NCBI GenBank assembly: GCA_964567855.1
Contig: CAZMOE010000008.1
Coordinates: forward strand, 4,921 to 68,920
Length of the DNA stretch: 64,000 bases
Reading direction: 5' to 3'
Source of the DNA: an uncultured Prevotellaceae bacterium
GTDB lineage: Bacteria; Bacteroidota; Bacteroidia; Bacteroidales; UBA3663
The position numbers and the translations under genes are program-made. Every line of letters begins with the position of its first letter. The first letter of the stretch is position 1. The notes under the pieces are model-generated. The model worked only from the letters and a program-made list of their open reading frames with translations. It was not told the origin of the DNA and did not search any database. Positions 5,167 through 61,957 of the stretch are shown here, one piece after another.

Positions 5167-5201
5167 ATCGATCATCATACATAAAATAATCCGATTACCT
5201 C

Positions 5202-6452: not shown

Positions 6453-6518
6453 GCGGGAAACAATTACAAAGAACTATAAAACAATATCCACGAATTCAAA
6501 TCAAAAACATTGTATATT

Positions 6519-7202: not shown

Positions 7203-7231
7203 AAACATTCCTTACCGACACCCCCGCCCTT

Positions 7232-9586: not shown

Positions 9587-9721
9587 AGTATTCCTTTTTC
9601 CTGCTGTCCGAATGCGACACCGGGAAAGAGACTTTCCGCTGACACCCGCCGACCTGGAACCGCTCTTCCGTGGCTCATCGGATTTCCACACAACTCCATT
9701 CATCCATAAACATTCATCGAT

Positions 9722-12070: not shown

Positions 12071-12200
12071 CGGAGTAACCGGCGGCGCAAGACGGGAATC
12101 GGCTCCATGTAAATGATTGCCGCTTCCCGCCCTGCCGCAGGGAAGCCATATAGAGTGAGAAGGCCTTCCTTTTTTACAGAAACAACTAACTACAATCCAC

Positions 12201-17205: not shown

Positions 17206-17215
17206 AAACATAATA

Positions 17216-17257
17216 CCGTTTGTTTGTTCATCATTCATCATGAAAACAAACAAACGG
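17216..17257 (-). terminator. hairpin after the LTA-synthase-family gene
   Basis: Perfect 13-bp repeat ccgtttgtttgtt / aacaaacaaacgg with a 16-nt loop, 46 nt after the stop at 17303 and only 5-11 nt before the lipoprotein start codon. Confidence 0.45.
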
Positions 17258-23721: not shown

Positions 23722-23733
23722 ATCAGAATCATT

Positions 23734-25464: not shown

Positions 25465-25481
25465 GAAATCCACAGTATATA

Positions 25482-27830: not shown

Positions 27831-27909
27831 GACTGTTATCTTATTTTTTATTTGAAGAATTATTAATGACATATCACCTATTCCTGTGAAAAATCTTCGG
27901 TCCGGACGT

Positions 27910-29307
27910 TCATGCGGAATGAGTCAATTCCCGCTCCAGCTCCTCCAGAGAACGGCCTTTGGTTTCCGGCAACCGACGATAAAAGCAAAAGAACCCGCAG
28001 ATGCAAATCGCAGCATAAATCCAAAAGGTTCCGCTACTGCCGAAAGCCATATTCAGCGACGGGAAAGAGAACGTAAGGGTCGTACAGCCCATCCACAAAG
28101 CAAAGGTGCAGGTAGCCATTGCAATTCCACGCACCCGGTTGGGAAAGATCTCGGACAATAGTACCCAGGTGACCGGTCCCAACGACATGGCATAGCAGGC
28201 AATGGCAGCCACTACCAGCACAACCATGAAGAATCCCGTAATGTGAAAATAGTAGCAACTGCCCAGAATGAGATAAATCATTCCAAGACCACCGGCACCG
28301 AACAACATCAGCGAGCGGCGGCCCCAGCGGTCGACCGTATAAAGCGCGACGATCGTGAAAATCACATTCGCAATACCGGTAATGACAATATTGAAAAGGA
28401 CATCACCGACCTGATAGCCGGCAGCCGAAAATATTTCCTGTGCATAGTTGAAAATAACATTCGTGCCGCACCACTGCTGAAATACGGCAATGACAATTCC
28501 CAAAACCAGAACCGCTGCATAACGGCGGGAGAATAGTTCTCTCAGTCCCCCCCTTTCCTGTCGCGCGTCGGTATCGGCAACCTCATGAATATGAGCCAGG
28601 CAGGCATCGGCATAATCTCCGCCTCCCAAGCGGCTCAATGTCGCCCTGGCGCGAGCGGTATATCCCTTCATGGCCTGCCAGCGCGGACTCTCCGGGATAC
28701 AGAATGCAAGCAGGAGAAAGAGCGCCGCCGGCAGGGCTTCGGCCCAGAACATATAGCGCCACCCCTGCTGCCCGTTCCAAGAGGCCAGAATATCGGCGGC
28801 AGTGAAACCCGCCGGGACCGGATCGGCCAATTGCCAGTTGACGATCTGCGCCCCCAGAATGCCGAGCACGATAGTCATCTGATTCAAAGAAACCAACTTG
28901 CCGCGAATCTCCGCCGGAGAAATTTCGGCGATATACATCGGCGACAAGGCCGAAGCAATACCGATACCGATGCCTCCCACAAAACGGGCGATATTAAACA
29001 TCGTAAAATCATCGTACCAGCCGGTGGCTACAGCCGATACCGTAAAGAGAACGGCCGATACAATGAGCAACGGTTTACGTCCATAACGATCGGAAAGCGC
29101 TCCGGCCACCATGGCACCTATCAGGCAGCCCACCAAAGCGGTCGACATGGCCACGCCCTGCCAGAACGGAGAGTCGGAAATGCTGAAAAAAAGTTCGTAA
29201 AAAGGTTTCGCCCCGCCGATCACGACCCAGTCATAGCCGAAAAGCAAACCTCCCATCGCCGAAACGAGACAAATAAAATAGATGAAGCCACGATTATAAG
29301 TTTTCAT
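27910..29307 (-). CDS. MFS sugar porter (XylE/AraE-like sugar:H+ symporter)
   Basis: Start trimmed to MKTYNRGF. Sugar-porter motifs GGLLFGYD, SDRYGRKPLL, PESPRW and PETKGRSLEE. 12 TM-like segments. Confidence 0.9.
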   Translation of the reverse strand: MKTYNRGFIYFICLVSAMGGLLFGYDWVVIGGAKPFYELFFSISDSPFWQGVAMSTALVGCLIGAMVAGALSDRYGRKPLLIVSAVLFTVSAVATGWYDDFTMFNIARFVGGIGIGIASALSPMYIAEISPAEIRGKLVSLNQMTIVLGILGAQIVNWQLADPVPAGFTAADILASWNGQQGWRYMFWAEALPAALFLLLAFCIPESPRWQAMKGYTARARATLSRLGGGDYADACLAHIHEVADTDARQERGGLRELFSRRYAAVLVLGIVIAVFQQWCGTNVIFNYAQEIFSAAGYQVGDVLFNIVITGIANVIFTIVALYTVDRWGRRSLMLFGAGGLGMIYLILGSCYYFHITGFFMVVLVVAAIACYAMSLGPVTWVLLSEIFPNRVRGIAMATCTFALWMGCTTLTFSFPSLNMAFGSSGTFWIYAAICICGFFCFYRRLPETKGRSLEELERELTHSA

Positions 29308-29338
29308 AGTATATAGAATAAATATGTGTTCATGGTGG

Positions 29339-29346
29339 CAAAAGTA
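29339..29346 (-). promoter_or_regulatory. sigma-A -7 motif (TActTTTG) for the MFS-GH35-GH43-DUF5107 unit
   Basis: The plus strand reads caaaagta, 32 nt upstream of ATG 29307. Confidence 0.45.
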
Positions 29347-29406
29347 CAAAGAAAAATCGACACCGCCGGTGGATAATCGTGCTATTTCATGTGGACAATC
29401 GTCCCA

Positions 29407-30309
29407 TCATGGAGTTTCTTTCATGTATTGGCTGCGGAAGCGACCGGCAGAGATCCCCATGATCTTCTTGAACGTGCGTGCAAAATACTGGCTGTCACTG
29501 AATCCCAGCTTATAGGCGATCTGCCCGACCGACAAAGGGGTATCGATCAGCAAAAGGCAGGCCTTGTTCACTTTTAAGCGGATAAAATAGTCCAACGGTG
29601 ACTGTCCCGTTTCCTCTTGAAAACGACGATAGAAATGGGACCTCGAAAAATGTCCTGCGGCAGCCATTTCCTCAACGCTCAGACGGTTTTCCACATTTTC
29701 CTCCATATAATGAATGACCTTGCCGACGGCATCCGTATCACGTTTTTTCCGATATGCTCCCTTCCGATAGACATTTACATAACGGAAAGTCCCCAGCAGA
29801 TGCTGCAAAACAAGATTCGCATAACCGAGAGCATCGGCATTAAGATTCTTGCTGAGTAAAAAGAATATCTCCTCAAACAAATCGATACGTTCGGCGATCC
29901 GGGAATCATCGGCAGGAGAGATACGTGTCGGAACAGCCAATCCCTCGGCAAGACACGGGGCTTTCAGCCCGTCAAAATGCAACCAATAGATCGACCAGGG
30001 ATCTTCCTCTTCGCTGCCATAGGCATGCGCTGCGCCTTTGGGAATCACGATAAACTCATCCTGCGACAATCGGCAACGGCCGCCGGCGACATCGACCCAA
30101 CCGCTGCCATCCCTGACGTAGATGAGAATATACTCCGGGCTGCCGCCCGGACGACGGACATAGTGGAACCGTGCATGGGGAAAATATCCGATGCAGGAAA
30201 GATACAGATCCTGCGAAACCAGGCTCTGTGTCACCTTCCCGACAACGGCCGGAGGTATAGTGAGGAATCGCTGCCCCTCAAATCCGTCCGCTAACTTCGG
30301 TCTGATCAT
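29407..30309 (-). CDS. AraC-family transcriptional regulator (cupin sensor + HTH)
   Basis: Start trimmed to MIRPKLADGFEGQRF. N-terminal cupin-like region (FHYVRRPGGSPEYILIYVRDGSGW..., IPKGAAHAYG). C-terminal AraC double HTH (SHFYRRFQEETGQSPLDYFIRLKVNKA..., GFSDSQYFARTFKK). Confidence 0.88.
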   Translation of the reverse strand: MIRPKLADGFEGQRFLTIPPAVVGKVTQSLVSQDLYLSCIGYFPHARFHYVRRPGGSPEYILIYVRDGSGWVDVAGGRCRLSQDEFIVIPKGAAHAYGSEEEDPWSIYWLHFDGLKAPCLAEGLAVPTRISPADDSRIAERIDLFEEIFFLLSKNLNADALGYANLVLQHLLGTFRYVNVYRKGAYRKKRDTDAVGKVIHYMEENVENRLSVEEMAAAGHFSRSHFYRRFQEETGQSPLDYFIRLKVNKACLLLIDTPLSVGQIAYKLGFSDSQYFARTFKKIMGISAGRFRSQYMKETP

Positions 30310-30329
30310 GGCATACTGATTTATCGGGA

Positions 30330-30337
30330 CAAAGATA
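30330..30337 (-). promoter_or_regulatory. sigma-A -7 motif (TAtcTTTG) for the AraC regulator
   Basis: The plus strand reads caaagata, 21 nt upstream of ATG 30309. Confidence 0.45.
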
Positions 30338-30370
30338 AGCAAATATTCCGCAACAGAGGATGCCCGGATG

Positions 30371-32017
30371 TTAAAATCCGCCTCCGACTACCGCAGCAGT
30401 CCCTTCACGAAGGGCGACAGGAATCCGATGCGTTCCACAACCGGACGGTTCCGTCAGCGACACACCGGGAACGGTATGGATGAAACGGATATCGGAAGAT
30501 TTTTCTCCCCCGATGATCAAAGTAAGCGAATCGGAAGGTGTGGAAAATCGGACACGGTCGAATGTCACGCGGCGTGCATCTAAAAAATGGATTCTTTCAT
30601 TGTCTGCAGCGATATCCAGATTCCGCAAAGTGAAACCATCGACATCATCCAATGCGCGGACAAGTTCACGGCAATGAATTCGCCCGTTCTCAATGGAAAC
30701 ATCCGAAAGCGGCGCCTCCGGAATACAATGCCCGGTCATCAGCCGATCCGCCGAAGCGACAACAAAATCACGTATATGTATATTGCGGACGACGGGAGTC
30801 AAAGGCGTCATCTCTCTGGCGGGAACACGCGCCGCCAGCTCGCCGACATATTTGGACTGCCCCAGCAGATCCCACGTGAAAGCCTCTCTGACATCATTCA
30901 TACGGATACGCTCGCAAAAGAATCCGTCTACCCCTCCCCCTCGGTTACGGCGGGTCTTGAAGCGGACGGCCCGATCGTTACCCTGAAAGACACAATCATG
31001 CACGTAGACGTTGCGGATATGACCGGCAGTCTCACTGCCGCATGTGATACCGCCATGCCCGCTCAGGGCCAGACAATGACGAATCAGGATATTCTCTGTC
31101 GGACGATTGACGCGGATACCGTCTTCCGCGCGACCGGCTTTCATGGTGAAACAATCGTCTCCGTTGCTGAGTGTACAATATTCTATCAACACATTGCGGC
31201 TTGACTCGATGTCGATTCCATCACCAGTAGGAATACCGACGGAATAAACCGTGACGCCGCGAACAATCACACTGTCGCAGTAGATCGGCACGATATTCCA
31301 AGTCACACCCTGCTTGATGGTGATGCCTTCGATAAGCACGCGACGGCAATCGACAGGCGAAATGGCCTTCGGCCGGTAAAAGGAACGACCACACAGACCG
31401 TCGCCGCCCCTTGCGGCAATCGGGAGACGATAATCTATTTCCTGTTCGATGACTTTCGTATTGCTGCGGGCGGTCCGAACTTCAGTATCAGGCGCCGGCC
31501 CGAAAATAATTCCTCTGCCCGTCACTGCGATATCCTCCTGTCCCAGCGCGTAGATGAAAGCACCCGATCCCATCAGTTCGATGCCCTCCACCCGGGTAAA
31601 AACAGCCGGCTGATAGTCGGCCACACTTCCGCTGAAATGCAATTCAGCCCCTTCGGCAATGTGCAGGTTGACCCGGCTCTTCAACTCAATACGTCCGGAC
31701 CGCCACCGGCCGTGCGGGATGACCACCATACCACCTCCTCGCCGGCTCACCTCGTCGATCAAAGTGTTCACAAGATCTGTGATCATGCTATCCGGTTGGG
31801 CGCCCCGCTCCCGAATGTCTATGCACAAAGCCGGAAATTCCGGACGGTGCAAAGTAGGAAAAAAGAACGGGACACCCTCCGGCGGTACTATTGTATCGGG
31901 CAGGAGTTGTGCCCCCACCTCTCCCATCTCCGGGATAACAACCTGCGGAATAGCCCGGCTTTTTACCATCCAACATATCCCTGCCAAAACGAAAATCCAT
32001 ATTCTGCAATTTTTCAT
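30371..32017 (-). CDS. glycoside hydrolase family 28 (exo-galacturonidase / rhamnogalacturonan galacturonohydrolase-like)
   Basis: Signal peptide present. Parallel beta-helix repeats with GH28 catalytic blocks PTGDGIDIESS, NGDDCFTMKAG, SGHGGITCGSE and RFKTRRNRGG. Confidence 0.85.
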   Translation of the reverse strand: MKNCRIWIFVLAGICWMVKSRAIPQVVIPEMGEVGAQLLPDTIVPPEGVPFFFPTLHRPEFPALCIDIRERGAQPDSMITDLVNTLIDEVSRRGGGMVVIPHGRWRSGRIELKSRVNLHIAEGAELHFSGSVADYQPAVFTRVEGIELMGSGAFIYALGQEDIAVTGRGIIFGPAPDTEVRTARSNTKVIEQEIDYRLPIAARGGDGLCGRSFYRPKAISPVDCRRVLIEGITIKQGVTWNIVPIYCDSVIVRGVTVYSVGIPTGDGIDIESSRNVLIEYCTLSNGDDCFTMKAGRAEDGIRVNRPTENILIRHCLALSGHGGITCGSETAGHIRNVYVHDCVFQGNDRAVRFKTRRNRGGGVDGFFCERIRMNDVREAFTWDLLGQSKYVGELAARVPAREMTPLTPVVRNIHIRDFVVASADRLMTGHCIPEAPLSDVSIENGRIHCRELVRALDDVDGFTLRNLDIAADNERIHFLDARRVTFDRVRFSTPSDSLTLIIGGEKSSDIRFIHTVPGVSLTEPSGCGTHRIPVALREGTAAVVGGGF

Positions 32018-32032
32018 ATCTCAATTCTATCG

Positions 32033-34732
32033 TTATTTCAATTTCAGATTCCGGAACCAATGCCTACCGGAATTCAACCGCTTCACTTTACCATCAGGCA
32101 AATGCACCTCCGCTGTGGTATTAGGCGGCAATACGATCATCCATTCTATACCGGAATCCCGACGGTGCCATTCGCTCCGGATAAGCCCATAAGGCGACCG
32201 ATGCGAGGCCACGACCCCGGAGAGCGCCTCCGTATGGAAATCGGGCCTCATGATAACATGTTTGAAACCGGGAATGGAAAGATCGCTGCTGATTCCCGCC
32301 AGATTTTCAAAACACCAAGGCAACAAATCTCCCAACAGCATAACATGATTACCACTATTCATCGAAGGATTGGCGGTATTGCCGTTCCATAATTCCCAGA
32401 TCGTGGTCGCTCCGTTCTTTAGCATATATCCCCAACCGGGATATTCCTCGTTGGAGGCGATCCTGTAAGCAATGTCGCCACAGCCGATAGAAGAAAGGTA
32501 GCGCATCAGCCACTGGATGCCGATCACCCCGCAACTTAAACGTCCCTCATTCTTCTCGACAATCGTCTTGATCAGCGTACGGCGTACAGCCTCTTCCTCA
32601 TTTGCAGGAACAATGCCCATAGCCAATGGCATTAAGTTAGCCGTCACTGTAGAATTGCCATACGTACCCTCTTTCAAAAATTCAGCATTGATCGCCTGGC
32701 ATGTTATTGCCGCCTCTTTTTTATAATAATCCGCATCCGCGTTCCTATTCAAACGAACAGCATGACGCGCCATCATCTTGCAAAGATAAAAGTAGTAGCA
32801 AGAAGAGATGAGCCGGCCTTCCGTAACCCGTGCGGGATCTTTGCTGTGAACCAGTGTAAGTTTTTCAGGTGGTACGCACCAATCGCCGTATCGGTCGTAA
32901 GTGATCAATCCTTTGTCATAAGACCTGCCGCGCACATAACGCAACCACTTGTCGATAAAGGGGTAGCATCTGTCCATCGGGCGAAAATCTCCATACTGGC
33001 GATACAGCATCTCGCAACCGAACGGAAGTGCTGCCGGCCAAGTGATATTGGTATTATAAAGCCGCCAATAGGCAGGAGCGACATCGGAAAGCGCTCCCTC
33101 GGGGCGTTGGGAGTCACATATGTCCCGCAACCATTTTCCGTACAACGGATAAACATCCAATAAATAGCTTTCACCCAGACATCCGGTCGTACGATCACCC
33201 AACCACGGCATCCGCTCATCCCGCTGCGGACAATCAATGGGCATTCCCTTATAATTACTACGGATTCCCCGCAAGGCGGCCTGCACAATGCTGTTCAATG
33301 TCTCATTCCCTTCTATAGTAATATAATTTCCTTCGGCTGATAAATCGTCGCTCAGCAACAAACGCTCCACATCATTGACTTGAAGATCCTTGACGCCGGT
33401 AATTTCCGCATACCGGAAACCGAACCAAGTGAATTCCGGCTGCCACAGGGCCTCCCGACCGTTACCGATATAGAAAGCCGCTTGCTCGGCACTGCGCAAA
33501 TTATCTGTATAAAGCCGTGTGCCATCATGGGAAAGCAATTCGGCGTGCCGGATGCAGACCGTGTCTCCCTTAGCCGGCCGCAAACGGAGACGGAGCACAC
33601 CGGCGCCATTCGTACCGAAGTCAAGAATATAACGTTCCCCATACCGTCGGATATCGACCGGCCTTTCAACCGCATATACCCGCACCGGCTCGGTAATATT
33701 GCCATGCATTTCACCACCGGGATCACCAACCGTTTCAGCATACGGCCAATTACGGTCGTCATATCCCGGCATCGTCCAACCGGGGAATTCCAATCGGCTG
33801 TCATACATCTCCCCATCATACAAATTGGAGTAACGCACGGCACCTTCGGTATTCAGCCGCCAGGAACTATCGGTCGCAATGGTCTCGGTAGTACCGTCAG
33901 CATATTCAAGAATCAAATCGAGACGCAAACGGGGCGTTCCGTAGGTCGTGCGCACATTAGCCTGGTAGTTCTGGGCCGGAGCAAAAAAATAACCGGCCTC
34001 GACCACAACGCCGATAGCATTATCGTCACCCAACATAGAGGTGACATCATAGCTGTTGTAAGCCACGGTTCGAGTGAAATCGGTAGGTACCGGTGTCAGC
34101 CAGTCATCTCCGACGCGCCTACCATTGAGATACAGAACATAAGTACCTAAGCCAGAAACATGGACAGTGGCACGACGCAGATTGCCGTGAGCGCGAAATT
34201 CTTTTCTGAAATAACGCCCCGTACAACGACTGTGCTGCGTGCTGCTGTCATGTACAAGCAAAGTGTCGGTACCAATCCACACCCCCCGCCACAGGGAATC
34301 GTTCAGCAAGCCGGTGGTCCACATCGCGACAGGACTCCAATCGGTATGTTTTTTCCCTGCCACACCACGGACACGCCAAAAATAGGCACGATTGGGCTGC
34401 AAAACAAGTGTGCCGGGGTCAACCCATTGCGAAGTGCTACTCTCGACCCAGCCGGAATCCCAAACATCGCCTTCGCAATGTTCCGCCTTTTCACGAGAAG
34501 AGGAGACAATGAGCCGGTAAGCCGTTTGCCGCACACCGTTACGACCGGAAACCCACTGCCAACCGAAACGCGGCTGCAATTCATCAAGCCCCATAGGGGC
34601 CTCACGGCCTTCGACAGTCAGGGAGGTAAGCTCACAAGATCTCTTTTCCGAAACATGCTTTCCGGAAACTGGTAACATGTGGCCGCTCCATGCGGCCACT
34701 ATAAATAGAAGGTATAATAAGCTCTTTTTCAT
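32033..34732 (-). CDS. alpha-L-rhamnosidase, glycoside hydrolase family 78
   Basis: 899 aa with a signal peptide. N-terminal rhamnosidase block PRFGWQW...RQTAYRLIVSS...VWDSGWVESSTSQWV...LQPNRAYFWRVRG. Central (alpha/alpha)6 region with PIDCPQRDERMPWLGD. Confidence 0.9.
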   Translation of the reverse strand: MKKSLLYLLFIVAAWSGHMLPVSGKHVSEKRSCELTSLTVEGREAPMGLDELQPRFGWQWVSGRNGVRQTAYRLIVSSSREKAEHCEGDVWDSGWVESSTSQWVDPGTLVLQPNRAYFWRVRGVAGKKHTDWSPVAMWTTGLLNDSLWRGVWIGTDTLLVHDSSTQHSRCTGRYFRKEFRAHGNLRRATVHVSGLGTYVLYLNGRRVGDDWLTPVPTDFTRTVAYNSYDVTSMLGDDNAIGVVVEAGYFFAPAQNYQANVRTTYGTPRLRLDLILEYADGTTETIATDSSWRLNTEGAVRYSNLYDGEMYDSRLEFPGWTMPGYDDRNWPYAETVGDPGGEMHGNITEPVRVYAVERPVDIRRYGERYILDFGTNGAGVLRLRLRPAKGDTVCIRHAELLSHDGTRLYTDNLRSAEQAAFYIGNGREALWQPEFTWFGFRYAEITGVKDLQVNDVERLLLSDDLSAEGNYITIEGNETLNSIVQAALRGIRSNYKGMPIDCPQRDERMPWLGDRTTGCLGESYLLDVYPLYGKWLRDICDSQRPEGALSDVAPAYWRLYNTNITWPAALPFGCEMLYRQYGDFRPMDRCYPFIDKWLRYVRGRSYDKGLITYDRYGDWCVPPEKLTLVHSKDPARVTEGRLISSCYYFYLCKMMARHAVRLNRNADADYYKKEAAITCQAINAEFLKEGTYGNSTVTANLMPLAMGIVPANEEEAVRRTLIKTIVEKNEGRLSCGVIGIQWLMRYLSSIGCGDIAYRIASNEEYPGWGYMLKNGATTIWELWNGNTANPSMNSGNHVMLLGDLLPWCFENLAGISSDLSIPGFKHVIMRPDFHTEALSGVVASHRSPYGLIRSEWHRRDSGIEWMIVLPPNTTAEVHLPDGKVKRLNSGRHWFRNLKLK

Positions 34733-34742
34733 ATTCTATCTA

Positions 34743-36809
34743 TCATTTAAAATAATCACACCACTTCAAATAATACATCAGCGCAAAATCCTGATCATTG
34801 GCCATTGGATCGAGAAAGCCTGCCGTCTGCCCGTTGACACGGGTCGGATATATCCAGGCGCATCCGCCACGTCCCTCTTCCGTAAAAAGGCAAAGATTGC
34901 CTTCGAGAATGGTACGCGCACGCTCCATATAACTCCTGTCGCCGGTACAAAGACTGTAGTTAGCGTAACAATCGGCCGTAATGCAACTCCAATAATGAGG
35001 CATGGTATCTCCCCAATAACGATGCTTGCCGAACCAAAAGCCGTCCCAATGGCGAATGGCGATATTGTTGAGATGATAACTGGGCTGATTCCCTCCAAAG
35101 GCCTCGACAACAGGCAACAGACGGCGGGCAGCATCCAAATAGCGTTGTTCGCCGGTCACAAGATACATTTCACAAATAAAGTCAACCGAGGGAGCGACAA
35201 TACTCTGCTCATAGTTCACTTCAAACTTAGGATAGTTCACTCCGTTGGCAATATAAACATCGGCCGCTTTGCGATATTCGCCCAACAGCGTATCGGCCTC
35301 GGCGGTCATCCCATTTTTACGTAGCAACTCCAGACTTTGAACGACGGGCACGTCAATGGTGTAAAATCCGTAGCCGCCTGCACGATAGGCCGCCATCTGG
35401 GTGCGGTAGCCATCCGTCAGGTATTGCTTGTTACCGGTCGCCATGAAGGTTTCAAAATAAAAATGAGCGACCCAAGGATAGTTATAGATACGATGCTTGG
35501 ATTTTCTATCCCATTCGGACCAAGTTTTATAATCCGGATCCTGTATTGCAGTACGTACAAAGCGAGCGTACTTAACCAACGCGTCGCGCAAACGACGATC
35601 CTTTGTGCGCCAGCATTGTTTCGCCAGAAAAATCCCCATTCCGACACGCTCTCTACCCTCACTCAAATCGCTGCGTTTATTGCCTTTCATCCAGTTGAGA
35701 TAAAGTGTTCCGGTTTCATTGTCATAAGGAAGCAATGCGCCGTCTCTCGGATCACCGGGACAATCATATTGTTGATGTGAAACGATAAAATCGGCGCGGC
35801 GGGCTATAAGATCATTGACATTACATGTTCCCAACAATTCTATACGGGTTCCCATGCCATCGGCATATCTACATTCGACACCGATATGGCCTATACGGTC
35901 CACTTTATAGTCCGCGGTCAGCATTCCGTCACGATAAACGGTCTTGATGGCTCTTCCGTCCACATAAAAACGACCGTTCATTAGCCGGGCACAGGCTTCG
36001 GCAGTTCGGGCATCTGCTCGCAGCCGAACTTTATCTCCAGCCTCGGCGACATAACGATCGGCCCCGGCGACAATACCGCCATAGGCGAGCAGTTTTGCAT
36101 AGAAGTCCTGCTCGCCGGCATGAGCAAACAACCGCCATTCAATGGTATCACTCTCTCCAGGAGCCAAACGGCGATCCGAAGGAGCAAGACAAATGATACC
36201 GCGGGTATTGGACATTCCTTTCCGGCTGTCCCGTTCTTTAATGACATATCCGTCCAGACTGCCACGGGTAAGCATCAACCCCAGATGAGGAGCAGCTCCG
36301 CCCATACGCAAAGCATACACATAAGCGGCATTTCCCCCGGCCCAAATATGAGCATGACAACGATGGGAAACGCACGTGGCGGCATCCGGATAGTTATCGT
36401 TGAAAGGGGTATTGATTTCCATCTCATTTAAAAAAATACTCTTGGAAGAGATGTTCTTAAAAATATACTGTTCCACAAGATCATCCCCGTGACAGAATCT
36501 CGCAACATTCAATTCGACACGACCGTCGATATGATATACACTACCCGTCCGACCGACACGGTCAGCCACCGTCCAGGCAACAGTTTTTTCATTATCCAAA
36601 CGGACGCTTCCTAAGCCCCAGCCCCATTCCCGACCGATCCATTCATATTGACGGCCATCGGGACTGACAATCCAATTCATGCCGGACGGGTCTCCGTCAA
36701 TGGTTATTCGGGTAATTCCGCCGGTTTCGGGTGCCACGTCCATTCGAACCTTCTGTGCGTAAAGTGAAACTGCGGTTATCGATATCAGAAATAAAATAAT
36801 TTTTTTCAT
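34743..36809 (-). CDS. secreted protein of unknown function (N-terminal beta-rich half + C-terminal helical, W/Y-rich half; candidate carbohydrate-active enzyme)
   Basis: Start trimmed to MKKIILFLISITAVSLYAQ (ATG 36807-36809). 688 aa. It is wedged between GH78 (10-nt gap) and the GH106-like gene (71-nt gap). I cannot place it in a named family by eye. Confidence 0.6.
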   Translation of the reverse strand: MKKIILFLISITAVSLYAQKVRMDVAPETGGITRITIDGDPSGMNWIVSPDGRQYEWIGREWGWGLGSVRLDNEKTVAWTVADRVGRTGSVYHIDGRVELNVARFCHGDDLVEQYIFKNISSKSIFLNEMEINTPFNDNYPDAATCVSHRCHAHIWAGGNAAYVYALRMGGAAPHLGLMLTRGSLDGYVIKERDSRKGMSNTRGIICLAPSDRRLAPGESDTIEWRLFAHAGEQDFYAKLLAYGGIVAGADRYVAEAGDKVRLRADARTAEACARLMNGRFYVDGRAIKTVYRDGMLTADYKVDRIGHIGVECRYADGMGTRIELLGTCNVNDLIARRADFIVSHQQYDCPGDPRDGALLPYDNETGTLYLNWMKGNKRSDLSEGRERVGMGIFLAKQCWRTKDRRLRDALVKYARFVRTAIQDPDYKTWSEWDRKSKHRIYNYPWVAHFYFETFMATGNKQYLTDGYRTQMAAYRAGGYGFYTIDVPVVQSLELLRKNGMTAEADTLLGEYRKAADVYIANGVNYPKFEVNYEQSIVAPSVDFICEMYLVTGEQRYLDAARRLLPVVEAFGGNQPSYHLNNIAIRHWDGFWFGKHRYWGDTMPHYWSCITADCYANYSLCTGDRSYMERARTILEGNLCLFTEEGRGGCAWIYPTRVNGQTAGFLDPMANDQDFALMYYLKWCDYFK

Positions 36810-36880
36810 CAGAAGTAAGTTTTGAATTAAATAATAGTTCCGCCCCAGACGAAAGCCGGGCTTCAACCAGAGATAAACGC

Positions 36881-39800
36881 TCAATGGTTACCGGAACACC
36901 GGCCACCGGTCTCCGCCACAATCCAGAAGGCCGCGGTCAGGCCAGAAGGCAACAACGCATCATCCGGATGCACAACGGAAGGATAAGCATAAGTGACACG
37001 CCCGGTTTCCGAAAGCGAGCAATCATAAATCATTCTGTTGACCAATGAATTGGCCACATGAATCTCTACTTTATTCATGCCGGGAACCAGAAAATCGGTC
37101 ACGTCGACCATTTCCGGAGAACACCAGACGACACCGGCGTCGCAGCCGTTTATATATACATGCGCACCGAAACAAGATGTTTCCAATCCTAAATACATCC
37201 GCCCATGAATGGTGTCGACCGTTACCTCTTTCCGATAAACCGCAGTGCCGGAATAATAGCGTACTGAGGGATCGGTATGTGTCGTCCAATCGATAAGGCT
37301 ATCGAACAGAATTTCGCCGGCTCCTCCTGCCCGTTCATCAAAACAGACGCTCCAGGCCCCGTCTATAGGAATGCGGGAGCTCCCTGCCGCAGGCCGTTCA
37401 AAGGCGGGAAGAGAATCATTCCGATCGGAAATAACGATGAAAGAAGATTCCCGAGGATGGAAATCGAGATCCAAGGTGACGGAACGGCCGTCGGCCCGGA
37501 TAACAGGCAAAGCAAATCGTTCTCCGGTCACGCTATTCCACCATTGCGCATAACGGCCCGCCGCTTGAAAAGTAAACCGGTTGTGTTCGGCTGTATCTTT
37601 GTGATTGTCGATAAAGAAAACATCCGCATCACTAAGCCGGCGACGGGAGAAATAAAGCCGGTTGCTGTGCGTATCACCAACAGCCAGAGAAACATCGGCG
37701 GATATACCCGCACAAGCGACAACCTCAGACAGCGGCATCCCCCAATATACCCTTCCGCGACCATATTTTTTGTAGCCGGCCGGAGTATTGTCCCACATGG
37801 CGTCCACCAATGCCCGGTAAGCCGCATCCTGCCCCACATCGGCCGCCGATCCGGAACCGATAGGACGTCCGCCATACACTTTGGCACCTTTTTCTACCAA
37901 ACGGGCCATGGCCTGCAATGCCTTGAACGTAATATCGCCATTGCGAGGCAAAACCATAAGCTCATATTGCACTCCGTCGGGCAGAACAATCCTACCGTCG
38001 GAAACATCCATACGCGAAACCAACGCGTCGGTGGTGAACGCATCGAAATCGAAACCTCCGGGAATTTCCGGCAAGCGATAAGTCAGGATCTTGACCGGAG
38101 CATTTTCTCCCAAATAAATGCAAAGCTGCGCGGCCGGTTTTCCCTGACGCAGAACATAGGCATTACGCGCCTGATAATCCCAGAACGGACGGCTGTAAGG
38201 CCAAAACGTATTATTGCGATGAATGCAGTAATGCCGCCCGCCGCCGGTATTGCCAGGATAACGATCTGCCGCCCAAGGCTGATAGGCAGATGCACAGACA
38301 ACGAACTCATTGATGCCGTAGGCATAGGCATAATCGGCCAATTGTTTCAGATCGGACAGCGATGCGGAGAATTTCGCATCGGTATAGGCCTCGGCCGAAG
38401 CAACGGTCTTACCGTAAAGATGCGCGGCGGAGGCACTCTCCTTGATATCGTAATTACCCTCGGGATGGATGGCCCAAAATTCACCTTGCGGCTTGTCAAC
38501 CTTACTCTTGGCAAGAATAGGATCGCCTGGGATACAGAGTGCATTGCCGATGGCCTGGGCCGTAAATGTCAGACCCCGGTCATGGCAGAGACGACTGATA
38601 GTTCCGTAATAATTGTCGGCCATCAGATCGGCAATATTACGGCGAACGTCGAAAAGAATCCGCTCGGAGAGAGCCGTGCTATCGACCACATACCCCATCA
38701 TCACCGGCAGATAAGGAATAAGATCATATCCACGCCTTGCTTCAAATTCCCCGGCGAAGCTATCCGTCCAATTCTGCGATCCGGCCTCGTGGCTATCCAT
38801 CGCGACACCGACCAGACAACCGCTTTTGCTGACCAAAAGCGAATCATGAATACGCGCCACATAATTTTTCCATTGGACTTCGGCTGCCTGACGGGATAAC
38901 TTGTCGCATTCCAGCCCCATCAGGTTCCTGCGACCGTGTTTGATTTTCTTACCGGTCGGGACTGCGTAAAAGCGCATGATTTTCCACCGGCCAGCAGGTA
39001 CCTCCCAGCGGAGCATTCCTATTGTATCCATCCGGTCGGTCAGGTTCACGATGTCGCGCGATGCTATCACTTCGCCGGCAACATATCCCGGTTGTCGGCA
39101 CGGTTCTATATATTCGGCATGCAGACCCACTTTTTCCTCCCACTGGTCTACCCGCGCCGAAGAATGCAATACAACCCTGCCCAATTGCAATGCCGTATTG
39201 GAGATACTGTCATGCCACCAGTCGTGAAGATTCAGCCGGTAACAGGCGGCTGTTTCTGCATCGAAAGCAATGGTTTTTACATTAATTCCGCCATGAGCTG
39301 TGTAGATGGGACGGAGATCGCAGACCTTTCTGTAATTCACACCGTCGTCAGAGGCCTCTAAGCTTCCAGGCGAAGGCAATTCAAAGAAACCGGTTCCCAC
39401 AAATGTATCGGAAGGCGGACCCGGAACATTCGTTGCGCTGGTAGTCGCCTTACCACGGGGTTTCATCTCATAAGAAACGGCCCGGGCTGTGAACGGCCGG
39501 TCAAAATCAAGATTCACATAAATATTACCATGACGCAAAGAGGCCTCTTTCTGCAACACAGCAACGGCACCCTCCTCCCCCAATATGCGGGTAAGATCCT
39601 TTATTTCTCCGGCATTGGTCGAGACACAGATTTTCCGGCAGGAAAAATCCTCATCCGATTCGCCGACAGGGAAAGCCAGCACCGCTATATCCTTATAATA
39701 TCCGAGGTTGGCACGAGGTGCCGGCAACATTCCGGCAAATTCCCGGCCGCCGGCCACAATAAGTTCCTCCGCCTGGAGCCGCTTCATAGCGAGGGCCGGA

Positions 39801-40216
39801 GTAATCCAGGGGCCGCCGGCAACAAAACCGTTGGAAACATGCACCTCGAAGCTCAGCCCCAGCCGCTCGGCCTCTTCTGCCGAAAAACGCAGCATCTGCC
39901 ACCACTCATCGCAAAAGGCGGGAAAGGCATGTTCCATTTTGCCATGTGTCTGGTCATAATAAACAACCCCTCCGACACCGGCACTCCTGAAAGCCTCCAG
40001 ATCGGCGGTAATCCCTTCACGCGTGGTCTCAGTCTCTCCATGAAACCACCAGACTTTGGTACGGGTACTGTCCTGCGGATGTTCAAAACCGTATAAGGCC
40101 TCCTCGAAACCGGCATCCCTCCCGGAGCGGCGGGAATCACAGGACGAAAAGAGAAGCAGACACAGCCACACTGCGGCAAAAAGCATCTTGAAGATAATAC
40201 GGGGTATATTTCTCAT
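36881..40216 (-). CDS. large glycoside hydrolase lipoprotein, GH106-like alpha-L-rhamnosidase (tentative)
   Basis: 1111 aa. Lipobox LLFSSC. The N-terminal block [37 protein letters not shown] and the C-terminal galactose-binding-like block [14 protein letters not shown]...[10 protein letters not shown] resemble what I recall of Glyco_hydro_106 proteins. The family call is unverified. Confidence 0.55.
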
Positions 40217-40290
40217 AAGAACAATAATATTTTCAATCGTTTAATATGTAGAAGGCGAAGATATCCGACCCTGGAAAATATATAAGGCAA

Positions 40291-40298
40291 CAAATATA
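40291..40298 (-). promoter_or_regulatory. sigma-A -7 motif (TAtaTTTG) for the GH106-unknown-GH78-GH28 unit
   Basis: The plus strand reads caaatata, 75 nt upstream of ATG 40216. Confidence 0.4.
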
Positions 40299-40391
40299 CG
40301 TATTTTTCGATAAACAGAGGGATTTCCGGCGTCAATCTCCAAAGCAGCGTAGCCGTTACAGATGGATAACGCCGGAATCCCCCCACCGTCA

Positions 40392-42818
40392 TCAATGATT
40401 TGCCTGAGAAGTGGTCTTCAATTTCAACACACGCCCCTTCATGCCATCGCAAGAGACCCGAATCTGAACCTCACCGGCCTCATGAGTGGCCCGTAAAACA
40501 GCGAGGGCAAAGCCTCTATGTAGCTGTCCGGTCGTTCCGGCAAAAGTTTCACCGGTATAATGATCGTCATTATCGAGTGCCACGAGGCGGGCAGCACCAC
40601 TCACGTCGACGGTAACCGTTCCCGTGGCCGTGGGGACGGCATTCCCTTTGTTGTCAACGGCAAAAATTTTTATGTATTGAAGATCCATACCGTCGGCGGT
40701 CCATCCGGCCGGACTTTCGGCTACCAATTGAATGGCAGAGGCCCTTCCCGTAGTGCGTAATTCATGACGTGCTACCTCTGTGCCCCCTGTGCGGGCGATG
40801 GCAACGATCCTCCCACCATTATCATACGGCACGTCATGCCAGTAAATCATGTTACGCTTGCGGATATCGCTCCGGTCATTTTTCCGGGTACCCATCGACT
40901 GGCCGTTGACCCACAGCTCGACCTCGTCGGCGTTGGTAAAGGTGAAAAGCTGCTGCACGGAACCGGTGGTACGGTTCCAATGAGACGACAAACGCAATCC
41001 GCCGACGGTGACATCGTTCCAGTCGACATTCTCGGCGGCTTCGTCGACCACGCCGATACGAACTACAGGTTCTGCGGAAAACGCGCTTTTCAGGAGATAG
41101 GCCTGCGGGTAAGGCTGAAGCGCATGGCTGAAAAATGAATAATTCCAACCTTTCTTCGGCCAGCCGTTCGATTCGCCCCAGTATTCGATCGCACCCCAAT
41201 AGGCCAGTCCCACCATACGGTCGCGATCCATACCGAAATAAGGAGCCAACAATTCATTGGAGGTAGCCTCACTCTGATAAACGATCAGGTCCGGCTTATA
41301 CTCGAGGTATTTCGGATAGGCTTCGAACTGGTAATTGTAGCTCGCAATATCGGTGACAAGGGAAAGTTCCGGCGGAGTGAAATTACCGTTAAAACCTCGG
41401 TCTTTACGGTTGATCGCTCCGGCACGGGCGGGATACATGGCCACGGTAGTTTTGCGAGTCGGATCATAGCGTTTGAGCAGGGTATCGAAAATCCGATAGG
41501 TCGTCACGCCCCAGTCTCCGGTCGGATAGCCCGCCAGATCTTCCCGCATCTGCAACTCGTTACCCAGACTCCAAAGAATGACCGATGGATGATTTCTATC
41601 GCGCTTCACCCACTCCGTTATCAGCTCCGGCCACATCTGCATAAACGGTCTGCGGCCACCCCAATAGGATTCATCGCTCCATTTATCGACCAATTCGTCA
41701 ACCACCAGGATTCCATATCTGTCGGCCAGGGCATAAAAGGTTTCAGAATAGGGATTATGAGAACAGCGGATATGGTTGAATCCGAAAGCCTTCATCTGCC
41801 TGAATTGCCGCTCGATGGATCGCTCAAAGGCCGCGACTCCCATGGCTCCGAGGTCCTGATGATTGGCAATACCTTGCAGAAAAATTTTCTCGCCATTGAG
41901 TTTAAGACCGAATTTCGGTGAATATTCTACCGAACGGATACCGAACGTTTCAGTTATCCGGTCTATCTCCCGTCCCTGATGCACCAGCCGGACCTCGGCG
42001 GTATAAAGATTCGGTGCATCGCATGACCACAACTGCGGAGTTGCCACCACAGCCGCAGGTAGGGGCATTTCGATGTTTTTTAACTTCGTTCTCGTGACGG
42101 CGGGAACACTCGTTTCTGCCACCGGACTTCCATCGGGCGCGAAAATACGGGCTTCAATGCCGACATCGCCCCGTTTATGGCGCAATCCTTCCACTTCGAC
42201 CTGAATACAAACCTCTGCCTGCCGGGAACTGACCGTTGGGGTCGTGATGAAAACTCCATGGCGGGCAATCGCGGTAGAATCTTTCACGACCAGATGGACA
42301 TTCCTGTACAAACCGCCCCCGGTGTACCAACGCGATCCTCCCTTTTTGCCAGTCGAGGCACATACGGCCACGACATTGTCACCCTCAAAATCCAACAGCG
42401 AAGTGATATCCACCTCCATGCCGAGATAACCGTAATCGGTACTGGCCACTTTCTGCCCGTTCACCCAGACATCCCCGAGTAGCATAATACCTTCAAAGTC
42501 CAGCAAGACCCGTCCGCCCTGCCATGAGGAATCGGCTTTAAAGGTTTTGCGATACCAGCCTTTTCCCATAGCCTTAAAGCCTCTGGCCCCGCCGGCAGAT
42601 TCCGTCCACGGCTGTTCGATCTGAAAGTCATGGGGCAAATCCAGCATGCGCCAGCCGGCGTCATCATAGTCTCTTGCGAAAGCATGTTCCGCGTCGCCGG
42701 CATGAAACTTCCAGTCGAAATTAAATAACTGAACCGAACGAGAGCGAGCGGCTGTTGCCTGCACCATCATCCAGAAAGCGACAAGCATCCACGACATTAT
42801 AAACGACTTCTTTGTCAT
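40392..42818 (-). CDS. glycoside hydrolase family 2 (beta-galactosidase/beta-glucuronidase-type)
   Basis: Signal peptide present. GH2 blocks FNFDWKFHAGD...DDAGWRMLDLPHDF, NHIRCSHNPYSETFYALADRYGILVVDE and NHPSVILWSLGNE. Confidence 0.9.
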   Translation of the reverse strand: MTKKSFIMSWMLVAFWMMVQATAARSRSVQLFNFDWKFHAGDAEHAFARDYDDAGWRMLDLPHDFQIEQPWTESAGGARGFKAMGKGWYRKTFKADSSWQGGRVLLDFEGIMLLGDVWVNGQKVASTDYGYLGMEVDITSLLDFEGDNVVAVCASTGKKGGSRWYTGGGLYRNVHLVVKDSTAIARHGVFITTPTVSSRQAEVCIQVEVEGLRHKRGDVGIEARIFAPDGSPVAETSVPAVTRTKLKNIEMPLPAAVVATPQLWSCDAPNLYTAEVRLVHQGREIDRITETFGIRSVEYSPKFGLKLNGEKIFLQGIANHQDLGAMGVAAFERSIERQFRQMKAFGFNHIRCSHNPYSETFYALADRYGILVVDELVDKWSDESYWGGRRPFMQMWPELITEWVKRDRNHPSVILWSLGNELQMREDLAGYPTGDWGVTTYRIFDTLLKRYDPTRKTTVAMYPARAGAINRKDRGFNGNFTPPELSLVTDIASYNYQFEAYPKYLEYKPDLIVYQSEATSNELLAPYFGMDRDRMVGLAYWGAIEYWGESNGWPKKGWNYSFFSHALQPYPQAYLLKSAFSAEPVVRIGVVDEAAENVDWNDVTVGGLRLSSHWNRTTGSVQQLFTFTNADEVELWVNGQSMGTRKNDRSDIRKRNMIYWHDVPYDNGGRIVAIARTGGTEVARHELRTTGRASAIQLVAESPAGWTADGMDLQYIKIFAVDNKGNAVPTATGTVTVDVSGAARLVALDNDDHYTGETFAGTTGQLHRGFALAVLRATHEAGEVQIRVSCDGMKGRVLKLKTTSQANH

Positions 42819-42844
42819 GATATTTATATTTTATTTTGCGTGGA

Positions 42845-42852
42845 CAAAAGTA
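42845..42852 (-). promoter_or_regulatory. sigma-A -7 motif (TActTTTG) for the GH2 gene
   Basis: The plus strand reads caaaagta, 27 nt upstream of ATG 42818. Confidence 0.45.
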
Positions 42853-42888
42853 GGCAATAGAGTAAGGAGCTCCGGCAAAGTATTCACA

Positions 42889-42920
42889 AAAGAGGTCGAA
42901 AAGTGATTTTTCGACCTCTT
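42889..42920 (-). terminator. terminator of the propeller/AraC regulator gene
   Basis: aaagaggtcgaaaa gtga ttttcgacctcttt: perfect 14-bp stem, 4-nt loop, 13 nt after the stop at 42933. Confidence 0.65.
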
Positions 42921-42932
42921 TGTGGCAATTTT

Positions 42933-61745: not shown

Positions 61746-61957
61746 AACGTTTTTATTCTTTCTTGGTTCCGCTGTCCAATTCTCCAATCTATGGCGGGCC
61801 TTTACCGGATTTCGGTTCCGTCGGAACTTGCTCCTGGCAATCCCCCCGGCCCATGTTCCGATACGGATGTTATCCTTGCCAATCCGGACCGACAAGCCCT
61901 TTGGACCTCTAAAACATTTTAAACCAATATCTTTTTTATTTTTTTAATAATAGGCCG

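What the first reader, a model, noticed from the sequence alone, without database searches (positions are those of the whole stretch)
34743..36809. Uncharacterised 688-aa secreted protein embedded between GH78 and the GH106-like gene: candidate new carbohydrate-active enzyme family
Seen in sequence:
- It has a signal peptide (MKKIILFLISITAVSLYAQ).
- The N-terminal ~330 aa are rich in short beta-type segments.
- The C-terminal ~350 aa are helical and rich in W/Y/H/D (e.g. YNYPWVAHFYFETFMATG, RHWDGFWFGKHRYWGDTMPHYW, DPMANDQDFALMYYLKW), the flavour of an (alpha/alpha)-toroid sugar-binding domain.
- Intergenic gaps of 10 and 71 nt place it inside the rhamnosidase/galacturonidase transcription unit.
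- I cannot match it to a GH or PL signature from memory.

Inference: it supplies an activity missing from the named set, for example an unsaturated or uronyl hydrolase, a lyase with a toroid fold, or a debranching enzyme.
Basis: inference. Interest (0 to 1): 0.6.

Follow-up and report, generated by a model that had tools for sequence, protein, structure and literature searches.

The report
Known-family rhamnose-glucuronate lyase (PL27)
The "uncharacterised" 688-residue secreted protein is an ordinary member of polysaccharide lyase family PL27, a family described in 2017 whose enzymes clip the rhamnose cap off glucuronic acid on plant arabinogalactan side chains, so it does not found a new enzyme family.

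Summary
The ORF is real. It lies on the minus strand at 34743-36809, encodes 688 aa with an N-terminal signal peptide, and sits 10 nt and 71 nt from the flanking GH78 and GH106 genes. The novelty claim does not hold. The protein matches the crystal structure 5NO8/5NOK (BACCELL_00875, Bacteroides cellulosilyticus) at E = 6e-200 over its full length, with 45% identity. A high-confidence AlphaFold model (pLDDT 96.4) superposes on 5NO8 with TM 0.94/0.97 and rmsd 1.2 A. BACCELL_00875 is one of three characterised founders of CAZy family PL27, the L-rhamnose-alpha-1,4-D-glucuronate lyases that remove Rha caps from gum-arabic-type arabinogalactan by beta-elimination (PMC8377490). All 25 invariant columns and 84 of 85 near-invariant columns of a 109-sequence family alignment are kept in the window protein. 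The gene cluster fits arabinogalactan side-chain breakdown: a GH43 related to exo-beta-1,3-galactanases, GH35, GH2, GH28, GH78 and GH106. Pfam gives only a weak DUF5695 hit, which explains why the gene looks unannotated. Verdict: a new, untested member of a known family, of low interest. One small residual question is the recurring PL27-GH78 gene pair in clusters that lack SusC/D.

The parts
34743..36809 (-). PL27 polysaccharide lyase gene (688 aa), predicted L-rhamnose-alpha-1,4-D-glucuronate lyase
   Evidence: phmmer against 5NO8/5NOK BACCELL_00875: E 6e-200, query residues 5-681. BLASTP: 45% identity over residues 1-681. AlphaFold pLDDT 96.4. Foldseek to 5no8_A: TM 0.94/0.97, rmsd 1.2 A.
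36753..36809 (-). Signal peptide (residues 1-19, MKKIILFLISITAVSLYAQ), type-I-like with no lipobox Cys, implying periplasmic or secreted localisation
   Evidence: Read directly from the translation. The segment is a low-pLDDT N-terminal helix in the model. No dedicated predictor was available.
35820..36752 (-). N-terminal beta-sandwich domain (about residues 20-330), containing the strongly conserved TPFNDNYPDA motif (residues 134-143)
   Evidence: DSSP strands 21-328 in the model. Invariant residues W64, G65, E113, N119, D138, Y140, R203 and W225. 38% identity to BACCELL_00875 in this domain.
34746..35819 (-). [quoted passage not shown]
   Evidence: Helices 331-687 in the model. 51% identity to BACCELL_00875 in this domain. 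Invariant residues R338, Q346, E387, R388, Q423, R440, N443, Q575, H587, D601, H605 and N671. PMC8377490 describes this PL27 domain structure.
32033..34732 (-). GH78 alpha-L-rhamnosidase, starting 10 nt downstream of the PL27 stop; the PL27-GH78 pair recurs elsewhere
   Evidence: Five Pfam GH78 domains. PDB 6I60, E 5e-138. The same adjacency occurs in L084, L086, L006, L032 and L060.
36881..40216 (-). GH106 alpha-L-rhamnosidase, ending 71 nt upstream of the PL27 start
   Evidence: Pfam PF17132, E 4e-167. PDB 5MQM/5MWK, E 1e-120.
20365..45710 (-). Co-directional 11-gene CAZyme cluster: sensor/AraC regulator, GH2, GH106, PL27, GH78, GH28, AraC, MFS sugar transporter, GH35, GH43 (related to exo-beta-1,3-galactanases), DUF5107-TPR protein. 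Gaps are 8-175 nt.
   Evidence: Pfam scans, PDB searches, gap lengths.

Best explanation
The gene encodes a periplasmic or secreted member of CAZy polysaccharide lyase family PL27. Like the three characterised members (BT0263, BACCELL_00875, BACFIN_07013), it most likely acts as an exo-lyase on the non-reducing-end disaccharide L-Rha-alpha-1,4-D-GlcA that caps side chains of gum-arabic-type arabinogalactan proteins. The terminal rhamnose would sit in the deep pocket at the centre of the (alpha/alpha)6 barrel. The GlcA carboxylate at subsite +1 would be neutralised by conserved basic or amide residues; my candidates are the invariant R440 and N443 of the R-x-Y-N-Y motif, plus H587 and H605. A conserved tyrosine would abstract H5, and the C4-O bond would break by beta-elimination. 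This releases free L-rhamnose and leaves a delta-4,5-unsaturated glucuronate on the galactan side chain, to be removed by an unsaturated glucuronyl hydrolase encoded elsewhere. In this cluster the lyase would work alongside GH78/GH106 rhamnosidases, GH35/GH2 beta-galactosidase-type enzymes, a GH43 exo-beta-1,3-galactanase relative and a GH28. An MFS transporter would take up the released sugars, under a sensor/AraC regulator. Shown here: family membership, fold, conservation of the family-invariant residues, and gene context. Inferred: substrate, the roles assigned to individual residues, localisation, and co-transcription.
For: Sequence: phmmer against PDB gives 5NO8/5NOK BACCELL_00875 at E 6e-200 and 669 bits, query 5-681 against chain 13-688; the next hit is at E 0.035. 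BLASTP against the BACCELL_00875 ORF recovered from B. cellulosilyticus DSM 14838 (L025) gives 45% identity, 62% positives and 2% gaps. Fold: the AlphaFold model has pLDDT 96.4 and pTM 0.94. Foldseek gives 5no8_A at E 8e-78, TM 0.94/0.97, rmsd 1.2 A over 668 columns, and all other PDB hits have TMq of 0.37 or less. Conservation: of 25 invariant and 85 columns at 90% or more in a 109-sequence alignment, the window protein departs only at L->I422. BACCELL_00875 shares all invariants. All eight tyrosines conserved at 90% or more (seven in the barrel domain, plus invariant Y140 in the beta-sandwich) are identical in both proteins. [quoted passage not shown] Context: the best PDB matches of the cluster's GH43 are exo-beta-1,3-galactanases, the enzymes that attack the AGP backbone. 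BACCELL_00875's own locus also has GH28, GH43 and GH35 beside the lyase. Across 61 family loci the commonest neighbours are HTCS, SusC/D, GH115, GH43, GH2 and GH28.
Against: No enzymology exists for this protein or for anything closer than 45% identity, so the exact substrate is extrapolated. The founding paper (Munoz-Munoz et al. 2017, J Biol Chem 292:13271) is not in the held library. I therefore could not check the published catalytic residues by number; the 'tyrosine base' comes from my memory of its abstract. No GH105/GH88 gene (PF07470), needed to remove the unsaturated product, was found among the ORFs of 200 aa or more scanned in the 64-kb window. The immediate neighbours (GH78, GH106, GH28) are more typical of pectin (RG-I/RG-II) than of AGP loci. 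Unlike many family members, this gene has no SusC/D pair nearby.
Confidence: 0.8

Rival explanations
1. It is a PL27-fold lyase with a shifted specificity. This clade is embedded between GH106 and GH78 rhamnosidases and next to a GH28, with no SusC/D. It could cleave a different Rha-(1->4)-uronate linkage, for example the terminal Rha-alpha-1,4-GalA of rhamnogalacturonan-I oligosaccharides, or a Rha-GlcA unit of another rhamnoglucuronan.
For: The neighbours GH78, GH106 and GH28 are classic pectin RG-I/RG-II families. The closest relative (P0001, 69% identity) also sits between GH28, a SASA esterase and GH78, with a second GH28 downstream. A PL27 protein was detected in a gut metaproteome grown on apple pectin (PMC11214529). 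Identity to the characterised enzyme is only 45%.
Against: Every family-invariant and near-invariant residue is retained, so nothing in the sequence suggests a remodelled pocket. Eliminating a GalA 4-O substituent (axial O4, anti) differs stereochemically from eliminating a GlcA one (equatorial O4, syn), so I would expect changes in the catalytic apparatus (established lyase chemistry; inference). BACCELL_00875 itself, active on gum arabic, is also flanked by a GH28. Pectin preparations carry arabinogalactan side chains, which would explain the metaproteome result.
Confidence: 0.12
2. It is a hydrolase of the six-hairpin glycosidase type, as some database labels suggest. It would resemble GH127/GH146 or GH88/GH105 enzymes and act as an unsaturated or uronyl hydrolase rather than a lyase.
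For: One homologue (P0020) is labelled 'six-hairpin glycosidase' by NCBI. There is a weak local Pfam match to the GH127 catalytic domain (E 0.009, 22 residues). Foldseek finds generic (alpha/alpha)6 barrels, including the unsaturated glucuronyl hydrolase 3WIW, at TM 0.32/0.55.
Against: The GH127 match (15.5 bits) is below the gathering score (24.9) and covers 22 residues. The barrel hits have 8-14% identity and TMq of 0.37 or less, against 0.94 for the PL27 structure. The characterised homologues are lyases (PMC8377490).
Confidence: 0.04
3. This is the first reader's reading: the protein founds a new, undescribed CAZyme family.
For: Pfam and NCBIfam give no informative name. The only hit is DUF5695 at 31.7 bits, and almost all database homologues are unnamed.
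Against: It is a full-length homologue of a crystallised, biochemically characterised founder of PL27, a family created in 2017 (PMC8377490; PMC5753385).
Confidence: 0.01

Closest known systems
BACCELL_00875 (PDB 5NO8/5NOK), PL27 L-rhamnose-alpha-1,4-D-glucuronate lyase of Bacteroides cellulosilyticus DSM 14838
   Same: The length is the same (688 vs 694 aa) and so is the two-domain architecture of beta-sandwich plus (alpha/alpha)6 barrel. Identity is 45% end to end (51% in the barrel). The predicted structure superposes at rmsd 1.2 A. All family-invariant residues are shared. GH28, GH43 and GH35 genes occur in the same cluster.
   Different: BACCELL_00875 lies in a canonical PUL with SusC/SusD, a GDSL esterase and GH115. 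The window gene lies in a cluster without SusC/D, between GH106 and GH78, with an MFS transporter and AraC-type regulators. The window protein has not been tested biochemically.
BT0263 (B. thetaiotaomicron) and BACFIN_07013 (B. finegoldii), the other characterised PL27 enzymes
   Same: They belong to the same CAZy family and are reported to release Rha from gum arabic by beta-elimination (PMC8377490).
FoRham1 (PL42) and BT3686 (GH145), which act on the same Rha-alpha-1,4-GlcA linkage
   Same: They attack the same glycosidic bond in gum arabic. PL42 does so by beta-elimination and GH145 by hydrolysis (PMC8377490).
   Different: They have an unrelated fold (seven-bladed beta-propeller) and 3-5% sequence identity to PL27 (PMC8377490). 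This is functional convergence only.
Pfam DUF5695 (PF18951)
   Same: It is the only Pfam family that scores above its threshold: 31.7 bits against a cut-off of 25.2, with residues 423-612 matching profile positions 471-668. BACCELL_00875 also hits it weakly.
   Different: It is an 857-position profile of unknown function, matched only partially. It carries no functional information and is evidently a distant relative or an over-broad model.

Membership tests
CAZy PL27 | Significant full-length sequence similarity to a characterised founding member | tested here: met
   phmmer E 6e-200 against 5NO8. BLASTP 45% identity over residues 1-681 against BACCELL_00875 taken from the B. cellulosilyticus genome.
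CAZy PL27 | [quoted passage not shown] | tested here: met
   AlphaFold model with pLDDT 96.4; strands 21-328 and helices 331-687. Foldseek TM 0.94/0.97 and rmsd 1.2 A to 5no8_A. The fold description comes from PMC8377490. The structure is predicted, not experimental.
CAZy PL27 | Conservation of the family's invariant (presumed active-site pocket) residues | tested here: met
   25 of 25 invariant columns and 84 of 85 columns at 90% or more are retained. The only change is L->I at 422. BACCELL_00875 has the same invariants.
CAZy PL27 | The specific catalytic tyrosine proposed as Bronsted base, and the mutagenesis-defined residues of the founding paper | tested here: inconclusive
   The founding paper is not held, so residue numbers could not be checked. 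All eight tyrosines conserved at 90% or more across the family (Y140, Y362, Y414, Y442, Y444, Y483, Y557, Y606) are identical in both proteins. Any family-conserved catalytic Tyr is therefore present.
CAZy PL27 | Beta-eliminative release of L-Rha from Rha-alpha-1,4-GlcA, giving a delta-4,5-GlcA product | not testable with these tools
   This needs enzymology.
GH127 / Beta-AFase-like (PF07944) | Pfam domain match above the gathering score | tested here: not met
   15.5 bits against a cut-off of 24.9, over 22 residues only.
   No Pfam hit at E <= 1. The best structural match of that type is 3WIW at TM 0.32/0.55 and 14% identity, which is generic barrel similarity.
   No Pfam hit. None appears among the top 50 Foldseek PDB hits.

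The most novel reading that the evidence does not exclude
The small clade containing this protein (window plus P0001-P0003, 65-69% identical) is characteristically fused into an operon-like pair with a GH78 rhamnosidase, in clusters rich in GH28 and GH106 and lacking SusC/D. This clade may have evolved a specificity not yet described for PL27. One example would be decapping Rha-alpha-1,4-GalA ends of rhamnogalacturonan-I oligosaccharides, that is, an exo-acting RG lyase with an (alpha/alpha)6 fold. Another would be cleavage of a different rhamnoglucuronan.
Probability: 0.1. Interest if true: 0.4.

Novelty: new member of a known kind. Interest (0 to 1): 0.12.

Why it matters
The scientific value is limited. 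The work turns an apparent "hypothetical protein / candidate new CAZyme family" into a confident PL27 assignment, and it re-reads the surrounding cluster as at least partly aimed at rhamnose-capped, glucuronate-containing arabinogalactan side chains rather than purely pectin. It also shows a practical annotation gap: Pfam and NCBIfam carry no PL27 model, only a weak DUF5695 hit. The recurring PL27-GH78 pair in non-PUL clusters is a modest lead for anyone studying how rhamnose caps are removed.

Tried and rejected
- **Pfam and NCBIfam scans.** These gave only DUF5695 (31.7 bits), a sub-threshold GH127 fragment and a spurious 13.8-bit signal-peptide-only NCBIfam hit. They were uninformative, and the assignment came from the PDB sequence search.
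- **Founding PL27 paper.** I tried to read it by DOI, PMC id and PubMed id, but it is not held. Full-text searches for BT0263, for 'PL27 catalytic base' and for PL27 alone found no paper listing the catalytic residues. Residue-level mechanistic statements therefore remain inference.
- **Source organism.** An exact-sequence cluster look-up showed an unnamed NCBI contig of 95,219 bp plus Logan metagenome contigs. The LeuRS look-up returned nothing. The species-representative genome scan found no relative closer than 53%. The organism is therefore only inferred to be a Bacteroidota (probably Bacteroidales) MAG. I ran no further search on this.
- **GH105/GH88 partner.** I looked for such a gene in the window and found none among the ORFs of 200 aa or more scanned with Pfam.
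- **Operon structure.** The promoter/terminator scan was not above shuffled expectation and gave only a weak hairpin in the 71-nt gap, so it says nothing decisive about co-transcription.
- **Plus-strand ORF 34677-35324 (215 aa).** It lies antisense within the gene. I treat it as a shadow ORF; no evidence for it was sought beyond its position.
- **New CAZy family.** Rejected.
Full report
**Observation**

The region 34743-36809 holds a minus-strand ORF. The longest reading starts at a TTG at 36884 (713 aa). Gene calls on eight independent metagenome contigs that encode the identical protein also use the 688-aa form, and homologues align from residue 1.

The leader has a basic n-region, a hydrophobic core, a YAQ end and no lipobox cysteine. 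I read it as a type-I signal peptide; no predictor was available. The gaps to the neighbouring genes are exactly 10 nt (PL27 stop to GH78 start) and 71 nt (GH106 stop to PL27 start). The three quoted aromatic-rich motifs are present at residues 442-459, 586-607 and 667-683.

**What it is**

Pfam gives only a weak hit to DUF5695 (31.7 bits) and a sub-threshold 22-residue fragment of the GH127 domain. NCBIfam gives nothing meaningful.

A sequence search of the PDB is decisive. Chain 5NO8_A/5NOK (molecule name BACCELL_00875) matches at E = 6e-200 and 669 bits, query residues 5-681 against chain residues 13-688. The next hit is at E = 0.035. I recovered the BACCELL_00875 gene itself from Bacteroides cellulosilyticus DSM 14838 (locus L025). 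BLASTP gives 45% identity, 62% positives and 2% gaps over residues 1-681. Identity is 38% in the N-terminal domain and 51% in the C-terminal domain.

An AlphaFold model built on a 109-sequence alignment has mean pLDDT 96.4 and pTM 0.94. It shows strands in residues 21-328 and twelve long helices in residues 331-687. Foldseek against the PDB returns 5no8_A, annotated 'Polysaccharide Lyase BACCELL_00875', at E 8e-78, TM 0.94/0.97 and rmsd 1.2 A over 668 columns. Every other hit has TMq of 0.37 or less and 8-14% identity; these are GH94 phosphorylases, GH76, GH116, epimerases and one GH88.

**What is known about that family**

PMC8377490 (J Biol Chem 2021) makes three statements:
- BACCELL_00875, BT0263 (B. 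thetaiotaomicron) and BACFIN_07013 (B. finegoldii) are the three characterised members of CAZy family PL27.
- They release L-rhamnose from gum arabic by a beta-elimination that desaturates GlcA at subsite +1.

That paper cites Munoz-Munoz et al. 2017, J Biol Chem 292:13271. PMC5753385 records the creation of families PL24-PL27 in 2017. The founding paper is not in the held library. From my memory of its abstract, a tyrosine in the central pocket of the barrel is the proposed catalytic base, and the unsaturated product is removed by a GH105. I could not verify residue numbers.

**Conservation**

In the 109-sequence alignment (38-69% identity to the query), 25 columns are invariant and 85 more are conserved at 90% or above. 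The window protein departs from consensus at one of these 110 columns (L->I at 422). BACCELL_00875 departs at three, all conservative, and shares all 25 invariants.

Correspondences in window = BACCELL_00875 numbering include R338=R345, E387=E394, R388=R395, R440=R447, N443=N450, H587=H594, D601=D608, H605=H612 and N671=N678. The conserved tyrosines are Y140=Y152, Y442=Y449, Y444=Y451 and Y606=Y613. All eight family-conserved tyrosines (seven in the barrel, plus invariant Y140 in the beta-sandwich) are identical in the two proteins.

There is no sequence sign of an inactivated or remodelled site. My assignment of R440/N443 (the R-x-Y-N-Y motif), H587/H605 and one of Y442/Y444/Y606 to carboxylate neutralisation and proton abstraction is inference only.

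**Context**

The gene sits in an 11-gene co-directional minus-strand cluster (20365-45710) with gaps of 8-175 nt. In order of transcription:
- a 925-aa sensor/AraC regulator
- GH2
- GH106
- PL27
- GH78
- GH28
- an AraC regulator
- an MFS sugar transporter
- GH35
- GH43
- a DUF5107-TPR protein

PDB searches refine the neighbours:
- GH106 resembles BT0986-type rhamnosidases (5MQM, E 1e-120).
- GH78 resembles 6I60/3W5M rhamnosidases.
- GH28 resembles exo-galacturonosidase-type enzymes (5OLP, 3JUR).
- GH2 resembles beta-galactosidase-type enzymes.
- GH35 resembles beta-galactosidases.
- The best PDB matches of GH43 are exo-beta-1,3-galactanases (3VSF, 7BYS, 5FLW, 6EUG; E 5e-14 to 8e-9). These are the enzymes that attack the backbone of type-II arabinogalactan.

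BACCELL_00875's own locus reads SusC, SusD, GH28, GH43, PL27, GDSL esterase, GH115, GH43-GH35. GH28, GH43 and GH35 therefore accompany the lyase in both places.

Clustering the neighbours within 8 kb in 61 family loci shows these as the commonest companions: a hybrid two-component regulator (17 loci), SusC (14), GH115 (11), GH43 (11+4), SusD (8+5), GH2 (7) and GH28 (6). This is a polysaccharide-utilisation-locus signature for a glucuronate-bearing glycan.

The window differs in two ways. It has no SusC/D anywhere in 64 kb, and the lyase lies between two rhamnosidases. The closest relative (P0001, 69% identity) has a similar arrangement: sensor/AraC regulator, GH2, GH2, GH28, SASA esterase, PL27, GH78 overlapping by 4 nt, GH28. 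PL27-GH78 adjacency also appears in L086, L006, L032 and L060. No GH105/GH88 gene was found among the ORFs of 200 aa or more scanned in the window. The promoter/terminator scan is not above chance and shows only a weak hairpin in the 71-nt gap. Co-transcription is therefore plausible from spacing and orientation but is not demonstrated.

**Mechanism proposed**

I propose a periplasmic exo-lyase. It would bind the terminal L-Rha-alpha-1,4-GlcA cap of arabinogalactan side chains in the barrel pocket, neutralise the GlcA carboxylate, abstract H5 with a conserved Tyr and eliminate the 4-O-rhamnosyl group. The products are free rhamnose and a delta-4,5-GlcA-terminated side chain.

The GH35, GH2 and GH43 enzymes would then trim the galactan. 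The GH78 and GH106 enzymes would remove rhamnose in other linkages. An unsaturated glucuronyl hydrolase encoded elsewhere would clear the lyase product.

Confidence that the protein belongs to PL27 is about 0.97. Confidence that it has the same Rha-GlcA lyase activity is about 0.8.

**Rivals**

1. Shifted specificity within the PL27 fold, for example towards Rha-alpha-1,4-GalA of RG-I. The pectin-type neighbours (GH28, GH78, GH106) and a report of a PL27 protein in a metaproteome on apple pectin (PMC11214529) suggest this. Against it stand the complete retention of conserved residues, the different stereochemistry of GalA elimination, and the GH28 next to the gum-arabic-active BACCELL_00875. 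Probability about 0.1.
2. A six-hairpin hydrolase, as in database labels and the sub-threshold GH127 fragment. This is not supported.
3. A new CAZyme family.

**Novelty and score**

This is a new, biochemically untested member of a known family. It is 45% identical to a crystallised founder and belongs to a family with hundreds of members across Bacteroidota: 393 clusters and at least 552 loci in species-representative genomes. A specialist would not be surprised. Interest is 0.12. The residual leads are the PL27-GH78 pairing in non-PUL clusters and the lack of a PL27 model in Pfam and NCBIfam.

Noticed in passing
window 42933-45710 (-): This is a 925-aa regulator with the periplasmic Reg_prop/Y_Y_Y sensor and the C-terminal AraC HTH of a Bacteroidota hybrid two-component system. 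It has no HisKA, HATPase or receiver domains. A similarly built protein (Reg_prop plus AraC HTH, cut by the locus end) flanks the closest PL27 relative (L084). Other PL27 loci carry full-length regulators of about 1300 aa.
   Followed up: partly
window 20365-23721 (-): This 1118-aa DUF5107 + TPR protein starts 12 nt after the GH43 gene and is the last gene of the CAZyme cluster. Its only non-TPR PDB relative is 5CD6, named only 'TPR-domain containing protein' (E 1e-17, residues 41-345). Its function is unknown, and it may be a more genuinely uncharacterised component of the cluster than the PL27 gene.
   Followed up: partly
window 32033-36809 (-); L084 10001-14736; L086 10001-13740; L006; L032; L060: The PL27 gene is immediately followed by a GH78 rhamnosidase, with a 10-nt gap here and a 4-nt overlap in L084. 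The pair recurs in several lineages. In the wider family, however, GH78 is a minority neighbour: 3 of 53 loci by strict tblastn.
   Followed up: partly
window 1-64000: There is no SusC/SusD (TonB-dependent receptor/SusD) pair anywhere in the window, despite an 11-gene CAZyme cluster. Uptake seems to rely on an MFS sugar transporter (27910-29349) next to an AraC regulator.
   Followed up: partly
window 3739-14531 (+): An efflux-type operon (outer-membrane factor, HlyD-like adaptor, ABC ATPase) is followed by three tandem paralogous MacB/FtsX permeases of about 780 aa each.
   Followed up: no
window 14602-15675 (+): A gene of the choloylglycine (bile-salt) hydrolase family is present, which hints at a gut-associated organism. 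The window matches an unnamed 95-kb NCBI contig and several Logan metagenome contigs. The organism was not identified beyond a probable Bacteroidota.
   Followed up: partly
window 36838-36854 (-): A weak hairpin plus a T-rich tail lies in the 71-nt gap between GH106 and PL27. The terminator-like count for the region is not clearly above shuffled expectation (29 against 20.8 +/- 5.1), so this is probably chance.
   Followed up: no
window 16288-17253 (-) and 60738-61895 (-): Two ORFs of 321 and 385 aa have no Pfam match at E <= 0.001. They were not examined further.
   Followed up: no
protein database hits P0024, P0040, P0042, P0103: Some PL27 homologues are fused to extra domains and reach 988-1185 aa. 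P0040 carries a GH43 domain and P0042 carries GH16-type domains (PF00722). This is consistent with arabinogalactan-directed multi-domain enzymes.
   Followed up: no
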